Assembly (NCBI GenBank): GCA_022705945.1 | Contig: JAKJDL010000005.1 | Span: 15,825-79,824 of the forward strand | Direction: 5' to 3' | DNA length: 64,000 bases | Source of the DNA: Candidatus Omnitrophota bacterium | Lineage (GTDB): Bacteria > Omnitrophota > Omnitrophia > Omnitrophales > Aquincolibacteriaceae | Shown here: piece after piece, positions 53,354 through 60,379 of the stretch | Layout: the number at the start of each line of letters is the position of its first letter | How positions within the stretch are numbered: position 1 is the first letter of the stretch | Position numbers and translations under genes: made by a program | The notes under the pieces: model-generated | The model's database searches: none | What the model was told of the DNA's origin: nothing | Seen by the model: only the letters and a program-made list of their open reading frames with translations

Positions 53354-54976
53354 ATGCAATGGATAGCGCCTGCAGAAAAGAATGAAGCGAACGATCTTCT
53401 GGAAAAACGGCTGTGGGACGCCGCCGATCAGCTCCGGGCTAACTCCGGCCTGACTTCAGCCCAATACTCCCAGCCCGTCCTTGGGCTTATTTTCCTACGG
53501 TTTACCGACAGCCGGTTCAAGGTCCAGCAGGCCAAGATAAAAAAAGCAGGTAAGACCTCCCGGCGCGGATCCCGCGTCGAAGATTCTGCCGCCTATCACG
53601 CCGAAGGCATCCTGTATCTGGCGCCCGGAGCCAGGTTCGACGAGCTCCTTTCATACCCTGAAGGCGGTAAAGGCGGAAAGTCGCTCGGCCAGGCGATCAA
53701 CGAAGCCATGAGGAATATCGAGCGTGATAACCCTCAACTCGCCGGTGTCCTTCCCAAGACCTACGAAACCTTCGAGGCTCGGATCCTTGCGGAGCTTCTT
53801 AAAGTTATTTCCACGATTCCGTCTGACCTTGAAGGCGACTCCTTCGGAAAGATCTACGAATACTTTCTGGGTGAATTTGCCATGACCGAAGGACAAGCCG
53901 GAGGAGAGTTCTACACGCCGACGGCTATTGTCCGGTTGATCGTCGAGATTCTCGAACCGTTCCATGGGCTTATCCTTGATCCTGCCTGCGGATCGGGCGG
54001 TATGTTCGTCCAAAGCGCTCGGTTTGTGTCAGAACACCGGAAGAATCCTTCGAGCGAAATCAGCATCCACGGACAGGAGAAAGTAGACGCCACAGTCCGC
54101 CTCTGCAAGATGAACCTCGCGGCGCACGGTCTTGAAGGAGACATCAAGCAGGCCATTACCTATTACGATGACCTCCACAAGAGCACAGGCCGGTTCGACT
54201 TCGTTCTCGCCAATCCTCCGTTTAACGTCAATGCCGTGGACAAGGAACGTCTCAAAAGTGACGTCGGCCCGGGCAAACGCTTCCCGTTCGGGTTGCCACG
54301 CACAGACAACGCGAACTATCTCTGGATCCAGCTGTTTTATTCGGCGCTGAACAGTAAGGGCCGCGCCGGTTTTGTGATGGCTAACTCCGCGTCTGATGCG
54401 CGCTCTTCCGAACAGGAGCTTCGCAAAAAGCTCATCGAAGACCGTGCTGTTGATGTGGTGATCGCTGTCGGGCCGAATATGTTCTACACCGTGACGCTCC
54501 CGTGCACGCTCTGGTTTTTGGATAAAGGGAAGAAGAAAACACCGCGAGCGGATACGGTTTTGTTCGTTGATGCGCGGCAAATTTATCGACAAATATCAAA
54601 GGCTCAAAGAGACTGGACTCCGGCGCAGATCAGTTTTATCTCCAATATTGTGCGGCTCTATCGTGAAGAAGAACCCGACTTTACCCTTGGCAGGGATGAA
54701 GCGGCCAAGCGGGTTTCCGAAGCCTTCGGAAAGAAACCCCAATACAAGGACATCCCAGGTCTTTGCAAGGTTGTGACGATCAAGCAAATTGAAAAACAGG
54801 GCTGGTCGCTCAATCCCGGCCGCTACGTTGGTGTTGCGCCCGGTGGAACCCTCAGCAACGAGGACTTCAAGGAGCAGTTTGAAACTCTGAACGAAGAACT
54901 TGAAACCTTGAATGTTCAGGCCCGCAAACTTGAGCAAACCATCGCTCGCAACGTGACGGAGATTCTAGAGGCATGA
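53354..54976 (+). CDS. hsdM: Type I restriction-modification system, DNA methyltransferase subunit
   Basis: HsdM N-terminal '[13 protein letters not shown]...VLGLIFLRF'. SAM motif '[11 protein letters not shown]'. Catalytic 'NPPF'. 540 aa. Confidence 0.9.
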
Positions 54977-56175
54977 CGAAGGTCGAGCTCCGCACAGTTC
55001 GAATTGGTGACTTGGGCCGCGTCATCACCGGCAAGACACCACCGAGCGCCTACCCAGAACTGTTCGGGGAGGAATTTCCGTTTCTTACCCCTACAGACAT
55101 TGACGGTGTTGCGCGTTACATCGAACCAGAACGCTTCCTATCGCTAAAGGGATACGATCACCAGCAACAACTGCTTCTTCCGCCGCGCTCTGTCTGTGTT
55201 GTTTGTATTGGCGCTACGATCGGCAAAGTCTGCATGACCAACAAGCCATCGTTTACAAACCAGCAAATCAACTCCGTCGTTGTGAACGAAAGGGAACATG
55301 ACCCCATTTTTGTTTACCACCTTCTTACGACCTTGCGCGATGAGTTGAAATTAAATGCTGGTGGCGCTGCGACGCCGATCATTAACAAGACAGCTTTTTC
55401 AGAGATCGAAATCAATGTCCCGACATTGCTGGAGCAGCAGCGGATTGCGAACATTTTGTCGGCTTACGACGAACTGATCGAGAACAGTCAGCGGCGCATC
55501 CGGATATTGGAGACGATGGCCCGTGCTCTTTACCGTGAATGGTTCGTCGATTTTCGTTTTCCCGGCCACGAAAAGCATCCCCTTGTTGCCTCATCCATTG
55601 GCAATATCCCCAAAGGCTGGGAGGTCAAAAAACTCAAGGATGTCGGTCGCCTCACAATGGGTCAGTCGCCCAAGTCAGAGTTCTATAACGAGACGGGAGA
55701 AGGTCAGCCATTCCATCAGGGGGTGACCGATTTTGGTGATCGCTTTCCAACCGACCGCTTGTTTTGCGCCATCGAGGGGCGCGTTGCTGAAGCTGGCGAC
55801 ATTCTGTTTAGTGTTCGTGCTCCCGTCGGACGCATGAACATTGCTGATAAGAAAATCATCATTGGTCGTGGCTTGTCCGCTATCCGAGATAACAACGGCC
55901 ATCAATCCTTTCTCTGGGAGCAGTTGCGCAACCGTTTTGCTAAAGAAGACATGATGGGTAACGGTGCAATCTTTGCAGCAGTAACAAAAGATGATATGCA
56001 AGGCATCGAGTTGCTTTGTCCGCCGCAATCACTCGTTGTGGATGCCGAGAAGCACCTTGTTTCGATTCACGAAAAAGTTAGCATTCTCACTCGCCAAATT
56101 CAAAACCTCCGCCGCACCCGCGATTTTCTTTTGCCGCGATTAATGTCGGGACAATGTAATCTTCAGGAGGTTTAA
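54973..56175 (+). CDS. hsdS: Type I restriction-modification system, specificity subunit (two TRDs)
   Basis: Overlaps the hsdM stop. Duplicated TRD architecture with conserved central and C-terminal coiled-coil repeats ('[29 protein letters not shown]', '[22 protein letters not shown]'). Confidence 0.85.
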
Positions 56176-56315
56176 GTCGTGGCTCTTCCGCACAGATTCA
56201 TTTTGATGGCGAGTTTTATTAACGAGGGAGCTTTTGAGGAATCGATTGAACAAAGTCTGACCCCCAATCGCGGGGGTGAAAGGAATACCAGGGGAAATTG
56301 AAAAGAGGAAATGAA

Positions 56316-56951
56316 ATGGCTTATATTTTTCTTGATGAATCGGGCGACCTAGGTTTTGATTTTACGAAAAAAGGAACTACCCAGTATTTTGTAATCACAC
56401 TGCTCTTTGCGGATCACAAACGACCTATCGAAAAATGTGTCCGCACGGTTCACGCGCACTTGCGCAAGAGATTCAGGCGAATAGGAGGCGTTCTCCACGC
56501 GTGCAAGGAGGAAGACGTTACACGGCAGAGATTGCTACGATGCCTGTCGCAAAAGAATTGTGCCGTTATGACAATTTATCTCAACAAGAAGAGAGTTTAC
56601 ACGCGCCTACAGGATGAGAAAGCGGTCCTTTACAATTATGTGACGAACATATTGCTTGACCGGATTTTTACGAAGAAATTGGTTTCCTCCGACGACATTC
56701 ATCTGATTGCCTCCAAACGGGAAACCAACAAATTCCTTAACGAAAATTTCAGGTCCTATTTGAGACGGCAAATGATTGTAAATCATACTCGCAAAATTGC
56801 GGTTGAAATTCGGACACCGGCTGAAGAAAAAGCCTTGCAAGCGGTGGATTTTGTGAGTTGGGCAATATTCCGAAAACCGGAATGGCGGGATGATGTTTAT
56901 TACAACACGATCAGGGGAAAGATTGTGGAGGAGAATCCGTTATTCCCCTGA
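56316..56951 (+). CDS. DUF3800-family protein inserted between hsdS and hsdR
   Basis: 'MAYIFLDESGDLGFDF' is the DUF3800 hallmark. RBS AAGAGGAAA. ORF open from 56298. Confidence 0.65.
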   Translation: MAYIFLDESGDLGFDFTKKGTTQYFVITLLFADHKRPIEKCVRTVHAHLRKRFRRIGGVLHACKEEDVTRQRLLRCLSQKNCAVMTIYLNKKRVYTRLQDEKAVLYNYVTNILLDRIFTKKLVSSDDIHLIASKRETNKFLNENFRSYLRRQMIVNHTRKIAVEIRTPAEEKALQAVDFVSWAIFRKPEWRDDVYYNTIRGKIVEENPLFP

Positions 56952-57160
56952 AAATGGTAAAGCCTCATTCGCTGTTTACGAGGAACCCTGCGGAACCCCA
57001 CGAATGAGGACTTACTTACCGCACAAACTATAGCATTTTATTCATGATGATGCAATGCGCTATTTGATTAAAAATTACAATGTAAACCTAAAAAAGCTCA
57101 AAAAAAGCAAAAAAAAGCTTTAACTAATTTAGACTCAATGAGTTACTATTTGACGGTTAT

Positions 57161-60100
57161 TTGATTGCTGGGAGACAACGAATGCCCCATGATTATTCCG
57201 AAGACCAACTTGTAGAGCAGCCGGCGATACGGCTCTTTAAGGAGCTTGACTGGGACACGACTTCAGCTCTTGAGGAAGTCCTTGGTCCAGGTGGGACGCT
57301 GGATCGTGAAACGAAGTCAGAAGTTGTTCTCATCTCCCGGTTGCGCGCAGTACTTGTCCGACTGAATCCCGCGTTACCACCTGAAGCCATCACAAGCGCC
57401 ATTGATGAACTGATTCGCAACCGTTCGGCGACGAGTCTTGCCGGCGCTAACCGCGAAGTCTCTGAGCTTCTCCGGGAAGGTGTAAAGGTTTCGGTTTCTG
57501 ACCGTGAGCACGGCGGGCAGAAGACGGAGAGAGTTCGGATCATTGATTGGGATAATCCCGCGTCCAACGACTTCCTTCTTGTCAGTCAGTTCACTGTAAC
57601 CGGGCCGTTATATACCTGCCGGCCGGATCTGGTGGGATTTGTGAACGGGATTCCGTTTGTGGTGATCGAACTGAAGAAGCCCGGCGTTCCTGTCCAGCAG
57701 GGGTTTGACGATAATCTGACCAGCTATAAACATCCGCAAAACGGTATTCCGCAACTCTTCTGGTATAACGCGCTCCTTATCGTCTCAAACGGCACGGACA
57801 GCCGTGTCGGGTCTGTTACGGCCGGATGGGATCATTTCGGGGAATGGAAACGCGTGAAAAGCGAGGCCGAACCACGCACGGTATCGCTTGAAAAGATGAT
57901 ACGCGGGACCTGCGCCAAAGAACGGCTGTTGGATCTAGCTGAAAACTTCACCGTCTTTTCGGAACAAAGAGCCGGGCTTTTGAAAATCTTGGCGCGAAAC
58001 CATCAGTATCTTGGTGTTAATAATGTGTTGTCGGCTCTTCAGGATGTCAAACGAAAGCACAGTCAGCTTGGTGTGTTCTGGCACACGCAAGGTTCGGGCA
58101 AGAGTTTTTCCATGGTCTATTTTTCTCAGAAGGTTCTGCGGAAGATACAGGGGAACTGGACTTTTGTCATAGTGACTGACCGGACGGAACTGGACGATCA
58201 GATCTACCGGACTTTCAAGGCGTGCGGTGCTACGAGCGAACATTGTCAGGCCGAAAGCTCCGCACATTTAAGACAGCTTCTTGGCGAGAATCACCGGTAT
58301 GTTTTTACTCTCATCCACAAATTCCGAACCGAGAACGGGACTCCTCATCCGATATTGAGCGATCGCAATGACATCATCGTGTTGACCGACGAAGCCCACA
58401 GGAGTCAATACGACACGCTGGCGCTCAACATGCGGACGGCTTTGCCCAACGCTTTGTTTCTTGCCTTTACCGGCACGCCGCTCATTAAGGGCGAAGAAGA
58501 ACGGACCCGTGAAGTCTTTGGTGATTATATTTCGGTCTATGACTTCCAGCAGTCGGTTGAGGACGGTGCGACTGTTCCTCTGTTCTATGAAAACAGGACG
58601 CCCGAATTAAGACTGAAGAACCCGGATCTGAATGACCAGATTTATGATCTGATCGATGAAGCGGGGCTGGATCCGGCTCACGAAGAACGGTTGGAGCAAG
58701 AGCTGGGACGGCAGTATCACATTATTACCCGCGATGACCGTCTGGATACGATTGCCCAGGACATTGTCCGAAACTTTCTGGGGCGGGGGTTTATCGGTAA
58801 GGCGATGGTCGTATCGATCGATAAGGCAACGGCGCTCCGGATGCATGACAAGGTCCGGAAGTATTGGGCGGAAGATCTCAAGAGAACACAGAAGGAATGG
58901 GATGAGATCACATCTTCCGGAGACAAGTATGATTCGGAAAAGAGGCGTGTCCTTGAAGAACGGTTGAAGCTGCTTAAAGAGACCGACATGGCCGTTGTGG
59001 TCTCGCCGGGGCAGAATGAGATCGAACAAATGAGAGCTCTCGGGCTTGATATCGTTCCGCACCGGGAGCGGATGAACAGAGAGCCTCTGGATGAGAAATT
59101 TAAGGACCCGAAAGATCCATTCCGGATCGTGTTCCTTTGCGCGATGTGGCTCACCGGTTTTGATGCGGAGTGTTGCTCGACTATTTATCTGGACAAGCCG
59201 ATGCGGAACCACACTTTGATGCAGACCATCGCCCGGGCGAACCGTGTTTTTCCCGGTAAATACAACGGTTTGGTCGTGGACTATGCGAATGTTTTTGCGT
59301 CCCTGGAGCGGGCGCTTGCGATTTACGGTAAGAGGAAAGGTGGAGAAAGGCCGGTCCGAGACAAGAAAAAGCTCGTTGAAAATCTCCGGAAGGCGGTTGA
59401 GGATGCGGTGAAGTTCTGTGATAAACACGGGGTCAGTATCAAGTCGATCGAAAAGATACCGGCCGGAACGATGGACAGGCTTACCGCTATTGCTGAAGCG
59501 GTTAACCCGCTCATTTCGCCGGATAAGGTGCGAAAGGACTTTTTCGCCGCAGAGAAGCTGGCAATGACACTTTATAACGCGGTTAAACCGGATCCGGTGG
59601 TCCTGGAATTTTCTTCCAGAATTAGCTGTCTTGCGACCATTGCGAATGTTATCCGGGAACGGACCGGCGGAAATGTTCCTGTCGATATCACGGCCATTAT
59701 GGGGGATATTAACCGCCTGCTTGATGAGTCGATTGAAGCTGAGGGCTTCAGGATCAGGGAAAAGACAGGTAGCGGGATCGAAGGCGTTATTGATCTCAGC
59801 CGGATTGATTTCGAGGCCCTGGCCAGGCAGTTCAAGAAATCCAAGTGCAAGAATCTGGGGCTGGAGTCGCTAAAGGCGGCGATCCGCGCCCAGCTGGAAC
59901 GTCTGATCCGGCTTAACAGGAACCGTGCTGATTATCTGGCTAAGTTCGAGGAGCTGATCGAGTCTTACAATGCGGGGAGCCGGAATATCGAGGAGTTGTT
60001 CAGGGAACTTCTGGTTTTCAGCCGGTCGTTGAATGAGGAAGAGAAGAGGCATGTTCGGGAAAACCTGAGCGAAGAAGAACTGACGATTTTTGATGTTCTG

Positions 60101-60379
60101 GTCCGCCCCGGTCCGGATCTTTCATCCGACGAGCGGGAGCAGGTCAAGAAGGTAGCCAGGGAGCTCCTTCAAAGGCTTCGGTCTTTATTTGTGATCAACT
60201 GGCGGGAAAGGGTTCAAACCCGAGCGCGGGTGGTGGAAGCCATCAAGGATGAACTGGATCGACTCCCGGGTGGATACACGCAAGACCTTTACCAGCTAAA
60301 ATGTTCAGCCGTGTTTGAGCATGTCTACGAGAGTTACTTTGGCGAGGGTAATAGCGTTTTTGTATCTTCGCAATCCTGA
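57161..60379 (+). CDS. hsdR: Type I restriction enzyme, R (endonuclease/translocase) subunit
   Basis: HsdR N-terminal nuclease region. SF2 helicase motifs ('HTQGSGKS', 'VLTDEAHRSQY', 'FTGTPL'). 1072 aa. Alternative ATG at 57182. Confidence 0.9.
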   Translation: MIAGRQRMPHDYSEDQLVEQPAIRLFKELDWDTTSALEEVLGPGGTLDRETKSEVVLISRLRAVLVRLNPALPPEAITSAIDELIRNRSATSLAGANREVSELLREGVKVSVSDREHGGQKTERVRIIDWDNPASNDFLLVSQFTVTGPLYTCRPDLVGFVNGIPFVVIELKKPGVPVQQGFDDNLTSYKHPQNGIPQLFWYNALLIVSNGTDSRVGSVTAGWDHFGEWKRVKSEAEPRTVSLEKMIRGTCAKERLLDLAENFTVFSEQRAGLLKILARNHQYLGVNNVLSALQDVKRKHSQLGVFWHTQGSGKSFSMVYFSQKVLRKIQGNWTFVIVTDRTELDDQIYRTFKACGATSEHCQAESSAHLRQLLGENHRYVFTLIHKFRTENGTPHPILSDRNDIIVLTDEAHRSQYDTLALNMRTALPNALFLAFTGTPLIKGEEERTREVFGDYISVYDFQQSVEDGATVPLFYENRTPELRLKNPDLNDQIYDLIDEAGLDPAHEERLEQELGRQYHIITRDDRLDTIAQDIVRNFLGRGFIGKAMVVSIDKATALRMHDKVRKYWAEDLKRTQKEWDEITSSGDKYDSEKRRVLEERLKLLKETDMAVVVSPGQNEIEQMRALGLDIVPHRERMNREPLDEKFKDPKDPFRIVFLCAMWLTGFDAECCSTIYLDKPMRNHTLMQTIARANRVFPGKYNGLVVDYANVFASLERALAIYGKRKGGERPVRDKKKLVENLRKAVEDAVKFCDKHGVSIKSIEKIPAGTMDRLTAIAEAVNPLISPDKVRKDFFAAEKLAMTLYNAVKPDPVVLEFSSRISCLATIANVIRERTGGNVPVDITAIMGDINRLLDESIEAEGFRIREKTGSGIEGVIDLSRIDFEALARQFKKSKCKNLGLESLKAAIRAQLERLIRLNRNRADYLAKFEELIESYNAGSRNIEELFRELLVFSRSLNEEEKRHVRENLSEEELTIFDVLVRPGPDLSSDEREQVKKVARELLQRLRSLFVINWRERVQTRARVVEAIKDELDRLPGGYTQDLYQLKCSAVFEHVYESYFGEGNSVFVSSQS

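What the first reader, a model, noticed from the sequence alone, without database searches (positions are those of the whole stretch)
56298..56951. DUF3800 gene embedded inside a type I R-M operon between hsdS and hsdR
The hsdM-hsdS pair (overlapping) and hsdR are separated by a 211-aa ORF with the DUF3800 hallmark 'IFLDESGDLG'. An A-rich promoter-like region (AAAAAAGC x3) lies before hsdR. Accessory defence genes inserted into type I R-M loci (for example the PrrC anticodon nuclease) are a known theme. DUF3800 is enriched in defence islands but has no assigned function, so this is a candidate R-M-linked abortive-infection component.
Basis: partly seen in the sequence, partly recalled or inferred. 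Interest (0 to 1): 0.55.

Follow-up and report, generated by a model that had tools for sequence, protein, structure and literature searches.

The report
RNase-H-like gene with partner RNA
The gene wedged into this restriction-modification operon is one half of a small, widely travelled two-part module, an RNase-H-like protein plus a tightly linked 73-base structured RNA on the opposite strand; it lands in many genomic contexts and probably works on its own, not as an accessory of the restriction system.

Summary
A 211-aa DUF3800 ORF (56316-56951, +) lies between overlapping hsdM/hsdS and hsdR.

This RNA has its own promoter and a terminator-like U-tract over the DUF3800 stop codon.

- **Linkage.** All 87 loci encoding this subfamily (52-100% identity) carry the RNA in that arrangement.
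- **Structure.** The fold has strong covariation: 99.3% of cells paired, and 11 of 21 pairs change on both sides.
- **Known families.** Rfam 15 has no match.
- **Other partners.** No protein-coding neighbour is conserved.
- **R-M context.** R-M genes are the commonest neighbours. Type I genes lie within 3 kb in only 8 of 172 loci, at varying junctions.
- **Protein fold.** The protein models as a type-2 RNase H fold.
- **Asymmetric loss.** Starting from the RNA, 26 of 114 loci have lost the ORF but kept an intact, promoter-bearing RNA. The protein was never found without the RNA.

Best reading: an autonomous, horizontally inserted nuclease + RNA module in which the RNA restrains or guards the nuclease (toxin-antitoxin or retron-like logic). 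The anatomy is shown. The mechanism is inferred.

The parts
53354..54976 (+). hsdM, type I methyltransferase (host operon, not part of the module)
   Evidence: N6_Mtase 2e-80, HsdM_N 5.8e-18; PADLOC MTase_I 5.8e-221
54973..56175 (+). hsdS, specificity subunit with two target-recognition domains; overlaps hsdM by 4 nt
   Evidence: Methylase_S 1.3e-36, two stretches; PADLOC Specificity_I 3.9e-81
56260..56277 (+). GC-rich hairpin (ACCCCC-AATCGC-GGGGGT) in the hsdS-DUF3800 spacer. No U-tract follows, and it is not conserved in other loci.
   Evidence: Read from the sequence; upstream regions of 80 loci share no conserved sequence
56316..56951 (+). DUF3800 ORF, 211 aa, type-2 RNase H-like fold. The invariant residues D7, E8, E136 and D178 are the inferred metal-binding set.
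56953..57025 (-). Structured small RNA gene convergent with DUF3800. The likely transcript runs from about 57020 to 56950. P1 is 57020-57015 with 56962-56956; a conserved UAA loop, P2, P3 and P4 follow; the U-tract overlaps the DUF3800 stop codon.
   Evidence: Covariance model R1: 83.2 bits, E=1e-20, the only hit in 64 kb; covariation; strand test; MFE -28.3 kcal/mol, z=-4.1
57027..57055 (-). Promoter of the small RNA: -35 TTGCAT (57055-57050), 17-nt spacer, extended -10 TGC-TATAGT (57035-57027)
   Evidence: Read from the sequence. Most related loci have TTGACA-N16-18-TATAAT at the same position, 70-80 nt past the stop. The window copy is weaker (3/6 + 5/6) and falls below the scan tool's threshold.
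57090..57119 (.). It lies outside the conserved module, between the small-RNA promoter and hsdR.
   Evidence: TRF period 10, 2.8 copies, score 46; similarity to other loci ends near the RNA promoter
57182..60379 (+). hsdR, restriction subunit. The likely start is ATG 57182, with GGGAGA 6 nt upstream; the ORF tool lists TTG 57161.
   Evidence: HSDR_N, SWI2_SNF2, T1R_D3-like, T1RH-like_C; TIGR00348 1.4e-146; sequence

Best explanation
**What it is.** The ORF encodes a DUF3800 protein with a type-2 RNase H fold and an apparently intact DE-E-D acidic set. It is one half of a self-contained module of about 0.75 kb. The other half is a roughly 71-73-nt structured RNA transcribed from the opposite strand.

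**The RNA gene.** It has its own sigma-70 promoter. The transcript ends in a hairpin plus U-tract that overlaps the DUF3800 stop codon.

**How it got here.** The module was acquired horizontally. It sits co-directionally inside an otherwise intact hsdMS/hsdR locus in a defence island.

**How it most likely works.** It probably acts independently of the R-M enzyme. The RNA binds and restrains, or guards, the nuclease. It may additionally act as an antisense to the 3' end of the DUF3800 mRNA. When the RNA is depleted, degraded or displaced (for example by phage-induced transcription shut-off or by a phage factor), the nuclease is released and attacks cellular or invader nucleic acid. This is the logic of an RNA-antitoxin system, and of retrons in which msDNA sequesters the effector.

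**Shown:** gene anatomy, RNA structure and strand, strict linkage, fold, lack of a conserved protein partner, asymmetric loss.

**Inferred:** RNA-protein binding, nuclease activity and substrate, toxicity, the trigger.

**My confidence in each step:** anatomy and linkage about 0.95; independence from the R-M system about 0.85; the RNA-restrains-nuclease mechanism about 0.4.
For: 1. **RNA structure.** On 70 sequences, 21 pairs were predicted and 11 have compensatory changes. 99.3% of cells are paired against 32-51% for slid controls. There are 163 double-change cells against 46.9 +/- 5 in shuffles, 0 of 500 reaching the observed value.
2. **Strand.** The minus strand gives 99.3% paired with 263 G-U pairs. 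The plus strand gives 81.6% with 3.
3. **Promoter.** TTGACA-N16-18-TATAAT occurs at a fixed distance in most loci.
4. **Linkage.** Model R1 finds exactly one copy abutting the stop codon in 80 of 80 genome loci, with one weak extra hit in 1.16 Mb. It also finds the copy in the window, in L081-L085 (L084 not scanned, same protein as L083) and in L086.
5. **No other partner.** The best neighbour cluster occurs in 5 of 80 loci.
7. **Asymmetric loss.** RNA-first sampling gave 88 paired loci and 26 with the ORF deleted but a short 3' remnant kept. The orphan RNAs score 73-93 bits and keep their promoters, median 10/12 against 10.5/12. Protein-first sampling gave 0 of 87 without the RNA. An antidote outliving a poison predicts this pattern.
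8. **Precedent.** DUF3800 is the effector of type VII retrons (PMC7736814). In retrons the RT and msDNA sequester the effector (PMC12819146).
9. **Horizontal insertion.** The module's GC is 0.38-0.47 against about 0.52 for the hsd genes. The subfamily is 56-75% identical across Nitrospirota, Omnitrophota, Patescibacteria, Proteobacteria and an archaeal MAG.
Against: - No experiment or expression data supports toxicity, RNA binding or nuclease activity.
- A Legionella Tn-seq study lists a distant, strain-specific DUF3800 gene among apparently essential accessory genes, alongside antitoxins (10.1101/2020.10.01.323287). A simple toxin would not behave that way.
- 11 of the 26 orphan RNAs abut a tyrosine integrase. 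In those the ORF may have been displaced by an inserted element and not lost, which weakens the asymmetry argument.
- The two samples were drawn differently. The RNA side needed an exact 22-nt core.
- Orphan RNAs that stay intact while diverging imply the RNA has some value without a cis nuclease. This fits an antidote against copies in trans, but it also fits other roles.
- The RNA is nearly all paired or conserved, so RNA binding is plausible, but nothing shows that binding is inhibitory and not activating.
- R-M neighbours are enriched, so some functional synergy with R-M cannot be excluded.
Confidence: 0.5

Rival explanations
1. R-M-dependent abortive-infection accessory of the PrrC kind. 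The DUF3800 nuclease is held inactive by the type I enzyme and is unleashed when a phage inhibits restriction.
For: It occupies the same slot as prrC, between hsdS and hsdR. Co-directional insertions recur next to unrelated hsd genes and next to Mrr. R-M methyltransferases are the commonest nearest neighbours: N6_Mtase 7, N6_N4_Mtase 7 and Eco57I 6 of 149.
Against: Type I genes lie within 3 kb in only 8 of 172 loci, and most loci have housekeeping or unrelated neighbours. The junction varies (M|S, S|M, S|R, after M). The protein is 56-75% identical across hosts whose R-M partners are unrelated or absent, which argues against a co-adapted protein-protein partnership. It has no PrrC, ABC-ATPase or anticodon-nuclease domain.
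Confidence: 0.1
2. The RNA is a positive cofactor. The two form a ribonucleoprotein in which the RNA is a scaffold, sensor or specificity element needed for DUF3800 activity, as guide or omega RNAs are for other RNase-H-fold nucleases; or the RNA is the enzyme's substrate or product precursor.
For: The two are strictly linked. The fold is RNase H-like, with PIWI, Cas9 RuvC and IscB among the lower structural matches. Other Weinberg motifs (HEARO, IS605-orfB) turned out to be nuclease partner RNAs (own knowledge). TPR-DUF3800 accompanies Cas12a2/a3 (PMC10910872, PMC13594972).
Against: The RNA has no variable single-stranded segment that could act as a guide: every position is paired or conserved, and the transcript starts at P1. 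Orphan RNAs persist intact without the protein in several independent lineages, which is unexpected for a pure cofactor. The protein is never seen without the RNA, but a harmless apo-enzyme should sometimes survive alone.
Confidence: 0.22
3. Pure antisense (type I-like) control. The RNA acts only by pairing with the read-through 3' end of the DUF3800 mRNA made by convergent transcription, lowering its stability. There is no RNA-protein complex.
For: The orientation is fixed and convergent, with the RNA terminator over the stop codon, in 87 of 87 loci. This resembles 3'-overlapping type I pairs such as Fst RNAI/RNAII or TxpA/RatA (own knowledge).
Against: The strongly conserved loop and bulge sequences (UAA, GUAAAUAG, GUGGG...CUC) and covarying stems go beyond what antisense pairing requires. 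Other DUF3800-associated RNAs occur on either side and in either orientation (PMC5737381), which points to a trans RNA-protein relationship. Synonymous sites in the last codons show no extra constraint, so the functional RNA does not extend into the ORF.
Confidence: 0.08
4. A mobile-element or housekeeping role and not defence. The conserved RNA gene is mainly an integration target or maintenance element. Alternatively, DUF3800 is a replication-linked RNase H with an RNA regulator.
For: In 11 orphan loci a Phage_integrase gene ends exactly at the ORF remnant, and the same integrase lies upstream of a full module in L031. 21 of 78 loci have a perfect DnaA box just upstream of the RNA -35, against 0.006 expected. 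The module is abundant in small Patescibacteria genomes, beside tRNA and housekeeping genes.
Against: The distribution is patchy and the protein nearly identical across phyla, which indicates an accessory, horizontally moving gene. Most loci have no integrase. The window copy has no DnaA box and sits in a defence island. Use as an att site would be a consequence of sequence conservation and would not explain it.
Confidence: 0.1

Closest known systems
DUF3800-associated RNA motifs (DUF3800-I to -XI; Weinberg et al. 2017, PMC5737381)
   Same: A structured non-coding RNA is encoded next to a DUF3800 gene. UAA is conspicuous in the unpaired regions, a terminator follows, and the function is unknown.
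   Different: No Rfam 15 family matches this RNA, even at E<=10 on the isolated region; DUF3800-I and -IX are in Rfam. I could not compare it with motifs II-XI that may be missing from Rfam, because the supplement is not held. Here the orientation and position are fixed: convergent and abutting the stop codon.
Type VII retrons (RT + msr/msd ncRNA + DUF3800 effector; Mestre et al. 2020, PMC7736814)
   Same: A DUF3800 protein with an RNase H2-like fold and a DE-E-D pattern is paired with a dedicated structured nucleic acid. By analogy, that nucleic acid holds the effector in check.
   Different: There is no reverse transcriptase in the window or among the conserved neighbours. The partner is a plain transcript of about 73 nt, not msDNA.
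Type III toxin-antitoxin systems (ToxIN, CptIN, TenpIN)
   Same: The proposed logic is the same: an RNA directly neutralises a nuclease, and the pair travels as a small autonomous unit in defence regions.
   Different: The RNA here is a single copy with its own promoter on the opposite strand. Type III antitoxins are tandem repeats upstream on the same strand. The protein is RNase H-fold and not ToxN/AbiQ-like. No PADLOC model hits it.
PrrC / EcoprrI (anticodon nuclease between hsdS and hsdR)
   Same: It occupies the same slot in a type I operon and is co-directional with it.
   Different: There is no sequence or domain similarity. The R-M context is present in a small minority of loci.
Type I TA pairs with 3'-overlapping antisense RNAs (Fst RNAI/RNAII, TxpA/RatA)
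   Same: The small RNA is convergent, and its terminator region is shared with the end of the protein gene.
   Different: The protein is a 211-aa soluble enzyme, not a short hydrophobic peptide. The functional RNA does not extend into the ORF.
TPR-DUF3800 accessory proteins of Cas12a2/a3 and type VI-F CRISPR loci (PMC10910872, PMC13594972, PMC12669027)
   Same: A DUF3800 RNase H-fold domain in a defence context.
   Different: This protein has no TPR domain, there is no CRISPR locus, and its partner is a dedicated small RNA.

Membership tests
Pfam DUF3800 (PF12686) | Profile match above the gathering score | tested here: met
   48.7 bits against a cut-off of 21, E=1.8e-12, profile positions 1-149 of 149
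Pfam DUF3800 (PF12686) | N-terminal DE motif and C-terminal QxxD motif | tested here: met
   D7-E8 and Q175-A-V-D178. D7, E8, Q175 and D178 are invariant in 29 homologues. The motifs are as described in PMC7736814.
Type 2 RNase H fold (RNase HII/H2A/HIII) | Structural similarity over the catalytic domain | tested here: met
Type 2 RNase H fold (RNase HII/H2A/HIII) | DEDD catalytic carboxylates in equivalent positions | tested here: inconclusive
   D7, E8, E136 and D178 are invariant and fall after beta1, beta4 and beta5 in the predicted secondary structure. No residue-level superposition was available. There is no sequence-level match to any solved structure.
Type I restriction-modification system (host locus) | hsdM, hsdS and hsdR all present and intact | tested here: met
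   Pfam, PADLOC and NCBIfam hits for all three
PrrC-type R-M-embedded anticodon nuclease | ABC-ATPase-like N-domain plus anticodon-nuclease C-domain | tested here: not met
   Only DUF3800 is found in Pfam; nothing in NCBIfam or PADLOC
PrrC-type R-M-embedded anticodon nuclease | Conserved association with a type I R-M locus | tested here: not met
   Type I genes lie within 3 kb in 8 of 172 loci, at varying junctions
Rfam DUF3800 RNA families (e.g. RF02969 DUF3800-I, RF02968 DUF3800-IX) | Covariance-model match | tested here: not met
   No DUF3800-* hit at E<=1 in the window region or in 12 loci, nor at E<=10 on the isolated RNA
Weinberg DUF3800-II to -XI motifs not deposited in Rfam | Match to the published consensus | not testable with these tools
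   The supplementary alignments are not held
Type III toxin-antitoxin | Tandem antitoxin RNA repeats upstream of the toxin on the same strand | tested here: not met
   A single RNA copy on the opposite strand, downstream. The only tandem repeat nearby is the unrelated A-rich array.
Type III toxin-antitoxin | RNA binds and inhibits the nuclease; the toxin is growth-inhibitory | not testable with these tools
   Needs expression and binding experiments
Type I toxin-antitoxin | Small hydrophobic toxin peptide | tested here: not met
   A 211-aa soluble alpha/beta enzyme
Retron (type VII) | Adjacent reverse transcriptase | tested here: not met
   The window neighbours are hsdS and hsdR. No neighbour cluster occurs in more than 5 of 80 loci, and no RT family appears in the top neighbour tally.
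Known anti-phage systems in PADLOC-DB 2.0 | Model match | tested here: not met
   0 families for the DUF3800 protein

The most novel reading that the evidence does not exclude
The DUF3800 + small-RNA pair is an uncharacterised class of RNA-guarded nuclease module, in effect a retron without a reverse transcriptase. A directly transcribed 73-nt structured RNA takes the place of msDNA as the keeper and sensor of an RNase-H-fold effector. The module spreads across bacteria, candidate-phyla radiation lineages and archaea. In some lineages its RNA promoter is wired to DnaA. Its conserved RNA gene is itself used as an attachment site by tyrosine-integrase elements.
Probability: 0.3. Interest if true: 0.8.

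Novelty: new member of a known kind. Interest (0 to 1): 0.6.

Why it matters
Structured RNAs next to DUF3800 genes have been an unexplained observation since 2017, and no DUF3800 protein has a demonstrated activity.

This subfamily offers a very small and clean test case:
- a 211-aa protein;
- a 73-nt RNA with a defined promoter, structure and terminator;
- thousands of natural variants.

The asymmetric-loss pattern gives a concrete, cheap hypothesis to test: the RNA neutralises the nuclease.

It also corrects the annotation logic for genes embedded in R-M operons. Here the operon is a landing site and not a functional partner.

If the RNA-guard idea holds, it would link retron effectors, CRISPR-associated DUF3800 proteins and these free-standing modules under one mechanism.

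Tried and rejected
- **Known RNA family.** Rfam scans of the region, of 12 loci and of the isolated RNA found nothing relevant.
- **Known defence model.** PADLOC and NCBIfam give no hit for the protein. PHROGs gives only a distant family of unknown function, phrog_9243.
- **Conserved protein partner.** All-against-all clustering of 861 neighbouring ORFs found none.
- **Phage or plasmid carriage.** There are 0 hits in 50,697 phage records, 4 distant plasmid hits and 1 close IMG/VR hit. The module is essentially chromosomal.
- **Target-site duplication.** A 9-nt direct repeat (ACAATGTAA at 56151 and 57077) brackets the module, but about 2.5 such pairs are expected by chance in 1.15 kb. Rejected.
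- **RNA extending into the ORF.** This could have explained the invariant EENPLFP tail. Synonymous-site entropy in the last codons equals that elsewhere. Rejected.
- **A-rich repeat as part of the module or as a scored promoter.** It lies outside the conserved block, and no + strand sigma-70 match was found.
- **Conserved upstream promoter or leader for DUF3800.** None was found.
- **Sequence-level link to a solved structure.** None was found.
- **Source organism.** The cluster record carries no name.
- **Two documents could not be read.** These were the Weinberg supplement and a 2026 bioRxiv paper that mentions DUF3800.

Full report
**1. The observation**

The ORF tool lists 56298-56951 (+) as a 217-aa ORF with a TTG start. 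All homologues begin at MAYIF.

Pfam DUF3800 matches over its whole length (E=1.8e-12, 48.7 bits, cut-off 21). Both published hallmarks of the family, the N-terminal DE and the C-terminal QxxD (PMC7736814), are present and invariant.

The flanking genes are an intact type I R-M system:
- hsdM 53354-54976;
- hsdS 54973-56175, overlapping hsdM by 4 nt;
- hsdR, ending at 60379. Its likely start is ATG 57182, with GGGAGA six bases upstream.

The A-rich repeat exists (57090-57119, period 10, 2.8 copies). No sigma-70-like site was scored there on the + strand.

**2. What else is there: a partner RNA**

Weinberg et al. reported that DUF3800 genes are accompanied by structured RNAs of unknown function, eleven different motifs in all (PMC5737381). 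I therefore fetched 80 loci from different species that encode close relatives (56-69% identity) and compared their flanks.

Directly after the stop codon, every locus has a conserved block of about 75 nt with visibly covarying stems.

Structure:
- Aligned on the minus strand (70 sequences), RNAalifold predicts 21 pairs, 11 of them with compensatory double changes.
- 99.3% of cells form standard pairs, against 32-51% when the partners are slid by 1-3 columns.
- There are 163 double-change cells against 46.9 +/- 5 in shuffles, with 0 of 500 shuffles reaching the observed value.

Strand:
- The same helices give 99.3% pairing with 263 G-U pairs on the minus strand, but 81.6% with 3 G-U on the plus strand.
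- The RNA is therefore transcribed convergently with DUF3800.

Transcription signals:
- Most loci have a near-consensus TTGACA-N16-18-TATAAT on that strand. Its -10 ends 70-80 nt past the stop, just before helix P1.
- The structure is followed by a U-tract that runs into the complement of the stop codon. This is a terminator-like arrangement.

A covariance model (R1, 73 positions, 22 pairs) gives these results:
- One hit in the 64-kb window: 56953-57025 (-), 83.2 bits, E=1e-20.
- Exactly one hit abutting the stop codon in all 80 loci, with a single weak extra hit in 1.16 Mb.
- Hits in L081-L083 and L085, retrieved through the nearest proteins; L084 encodes the same protein as L083 and was not scanned.
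- A hit in the one close viral-contig relative, L086.

The window RNA folds into the consensus shape on its own (-28.3 kcal/mol, z=-4.1). Its promoter is weaker than most: TTGCAT (57055-57050), a 17-nt spacer, then an extended -10 TGC-TATAGT (57035-57027). That is below the scan tool's threshold.

No Rfam 15 family matches the RNA. I tested at E<=1 on the region and on 12 loci, and at E<=10 on the isolated RNA. DUF3800-I and -IX are in Rfam. The supplement that describes motifs II-XI is not held, so identity with one of them cannot be excluded.

**3. Is the R-M context part of the system?**

- Clustering 861 ORFs within 6 kb of the gene in 80 loci found no neighbouring protein family in more than 5 loci.
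- Upstream sequence is not conserved. The left edge of the module is the start codon.
- Among the 149 nearest neighbours, the commonest families are DNA methyltransferases and restriction subunits of several types: N6_Mtase 7, N6_N4_Mtase 7, Eco57I 6, ResIII 4, HsdM_N 3, Methylase_S 2. The PADLOC tally is likewise dominated by type I, II, IIG and III methyltransferases.
- The remaining neighbours include translation factors, glycosyltransferases, HepT and GIY-YIG proteins.
- Type I genes lie within 3 kb in 8 of 172 DUF3800 loci. They are always co-directional with DUF3800 but sit at different junctions:
  - S|module|M in L022 and L040;
  - M|module|S in L082, which encodes the closest NCBI relative at 75% identity;
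  - M|module in L154 and L038;
  - M-S|module in L147;
  - module|R in L205.
- Another near relative sits next to an Mrr restriction gene.
- In the window, the module's GC is 0.38-0.47 against about 0.52 for the hsd genes.
- The window as a whole changes from core anaerobe metabolism (PFOR, NrdD/G, MatE) to a defence island at about 50 kb.

The module repeatedly lands in R-M and defence regions. The R-M system is neither a constant nor a position-specific partner.

**4. The protein**

- The AlphaFold2 model, built with a 29-sequence alignment, has pLDDT 81.5 and pTM 0.81.
- Foldseek's only significant PDB matches are archaeal RNase HII over the full length (E=4e-5 to 3e-4).
- No solved structure is related at the sequence level.
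- The invariant acidic residues D7 and E8 (strand 1), E136 (after strand 4) and D178 (helix after strand 5) match the DE-E-D pattern described for retron-linked DUF3800 (PMC7736814). I could not superpose residues, so this mapping is inferred.
- The invariant EENPLFP tail is constrained at the protein level only. Synonymous variation there equals that of other invariant codons.

**5. The reverse test and an asymmetry**

I searched metagenome contigs for the exact 22-nt RNA core. This gave 120 loci:
- 88 have DUF3800 on the opposite strand, 28-82 nt away.
- 6 lack room for the gene.
- 26 have room but no DUF3800 ORF.

The 26 orphans:
- In nearly all of them, a remnant of the last 3-14 codons (for example IVEENPLFP*) still precedes the RNA. 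The ORF was therefore lost from a former module.
- The orphan RNAs score 73-93 bits, the same range as paired ones. They keep promoters of equal quality and differ from one another by structure-preserving changes.
- 11 have a Phage_integrase gene whose stop codon overlaps the remnant.
- The others lie next to YhcG nuclease, HsdM, an N6_N4 methylase or a Schlafen-like helicase.

Going from the protein side, 0 of 87 loci lack the RNA. The protein is never seen without the RNA, while the RNA persists without the protein in several independent lineages. That is what a poison-antidote relationship predicts.

Two caveats apply. The two samples were drawn differently. In the integrase group, the ORF may have been displaced and not lost.

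**6. Mechanism**

The best-supported reading is an autonomous module in which the RNA restrains or guards an RNase-H-fold nuclease. The nuclease would be released when the RNA falls. The closest functional analogies are:
- RNA-antitoxin (type III) systems;
- retrons, where msDNA sequesters the effector (PMC12819146), and where DUF3800 itself is the type VII effector (PMC7736814).

None of the defining features of type I TA, type III TA, retron or PrrC membership is met (see the membership table). This is therefore 'works like', not 'is a member of'.

Counter-evidence: a distant Legionella DUF3800 gene behaves as essential in Tn-seq, like antitoxins.

Rival readings remain open:
- RNA as a positive cofactor (0.22);
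- R-M-dependent accessory (0.1);
- pure antisense control (0.08);
- mobile-element or replication-linked role (0.1).

**7. Novelty and verdict**

Already in the literature:
- the general association of DUF3800 genes with structured RNAs;
- the RNase H-like fold;
- the defence-context enrichment (PMC5737381, PMC7736814, PMC10910872, PMC12669027).

New here:
- this RNA motif, which is absent from Rfam;
- its fixed convergent promoter-to-terminator anatomy;
- its 87-of-87 linkage to a very conserved and widespread subfamily;
- the asymmetric loss;
- the integrase and DnaA-box associations;
- the demonstration that the R-M operon is a landing site and not a partner.

I rate it a new member of a known kind. 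Interest is 0.6, because it turns a long-standing unexplained RNA-protein association into a simple testable system.

Noticed in passing
L008-L011, L014-L016, L018, L019, L021, L023, L025, L029, L055, L061, L067, L071, L074, L075, L077, L080: +102 to +125 nt after the DUF3800 stop: A perfect DnaA box (TT[AT]TCCACA, either orientation) sits just upstream of the small-RNA -35 in 21 of 78 loci, mostly Patescibacteria. The background is 0.006 per 150 nt. This suggests DnaA control of the RNA promoter. The window copy has none.
   Followed up: partly
L106, L107, L108, L113, L130, L132, L163, L167, L168, L200, L210 (and L031): A tyrosine recombinase gene (Phage_integrase, 1e-32) ends exactly at a short remnant of the DUF3800 3' end, followed by an intact RNA gene. 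In L031 the same integrase tail precedes a full module. The conserved ORF end plus RNA gene may serve as an attachment site, as tRNA genes do.
   Followed up: partly
L057:2896-2967 (-): A second, weak copy of the RNA (37 bits) lies about 250 nt upstream of the DUF3800 gene. It may be a partial duplicate such as an att repeat.
   Followed up: no
L011:10640-10732 and L188: An RNA variant carries an extra GC-rich hairpin (GCCTGCCTGTCGGCAGACAGG) inserted in the 3' bulge.
   Followed up: no
many loci, 8-12 nt upstream of the DUF3800 ATG (e.g. L018, L039, L048, L056, L064, L073): A TAnAAT-like -10 box lies almost directly against the start codon. This suggests leaderless or very short-leader mRNAs in those hosts. 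In other loci the ORF abuts or overlaps the upstream gene.
   Followed up: no
L012:2703-2773, L021:5146-5229, L019:1137-1293: tRNA genes lie immediately upstream of the module in several loci.
   Followed up: no
L004:1600-1670 (-): A 2dG-II purine riboswitch (87.8 bits) lies about 400 nt upstream of the DUF3800 gene in an Elusimicrobiaceae contig.
   Followed up: no
window:50029-50532: Two consecutive short ORFs carry a Fic motif (HPFRDGNGKVGR) and a DIP2311-like C-terminal domain. This looks like a frameshifted Fic gene at the edge of the island.
   Followed up: no
window:51040-52519: An AbiEi-like antitoxin (PF09952) overlaps a nucleotidyltransferase (NTP_transf_8). This is a likely type IV TA pair just upstream of the R-M locus.
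   Followed up: no
window:52516-53120: A calcineurin-like phosphoesterase appears split into two ORFs (74 aa and 88 aa), probably a pseudogene.
   Followed up: no
window:60451-61482: A fusion of a DUF1016 N-terminal domain with a staphylococcal-nuclease-like C-terminus. It matches the PADLOC candidate system PDC-S02 and lies directly after hsdR.
   Followed up: no
window:61701-63272: A DUF4062 + HATPase_c_4 + Fic-like_C protein has PADLOC hits to Argonaute-associated (Aga) domain models.
   Followed up: no
L073:13180-13962 and the upstream neighbour of one locus seen: Three of 80 loci encode a second DUF3800 paralogue near the first. One looks fused or truncated at its C-terminus.
   Followed up: no
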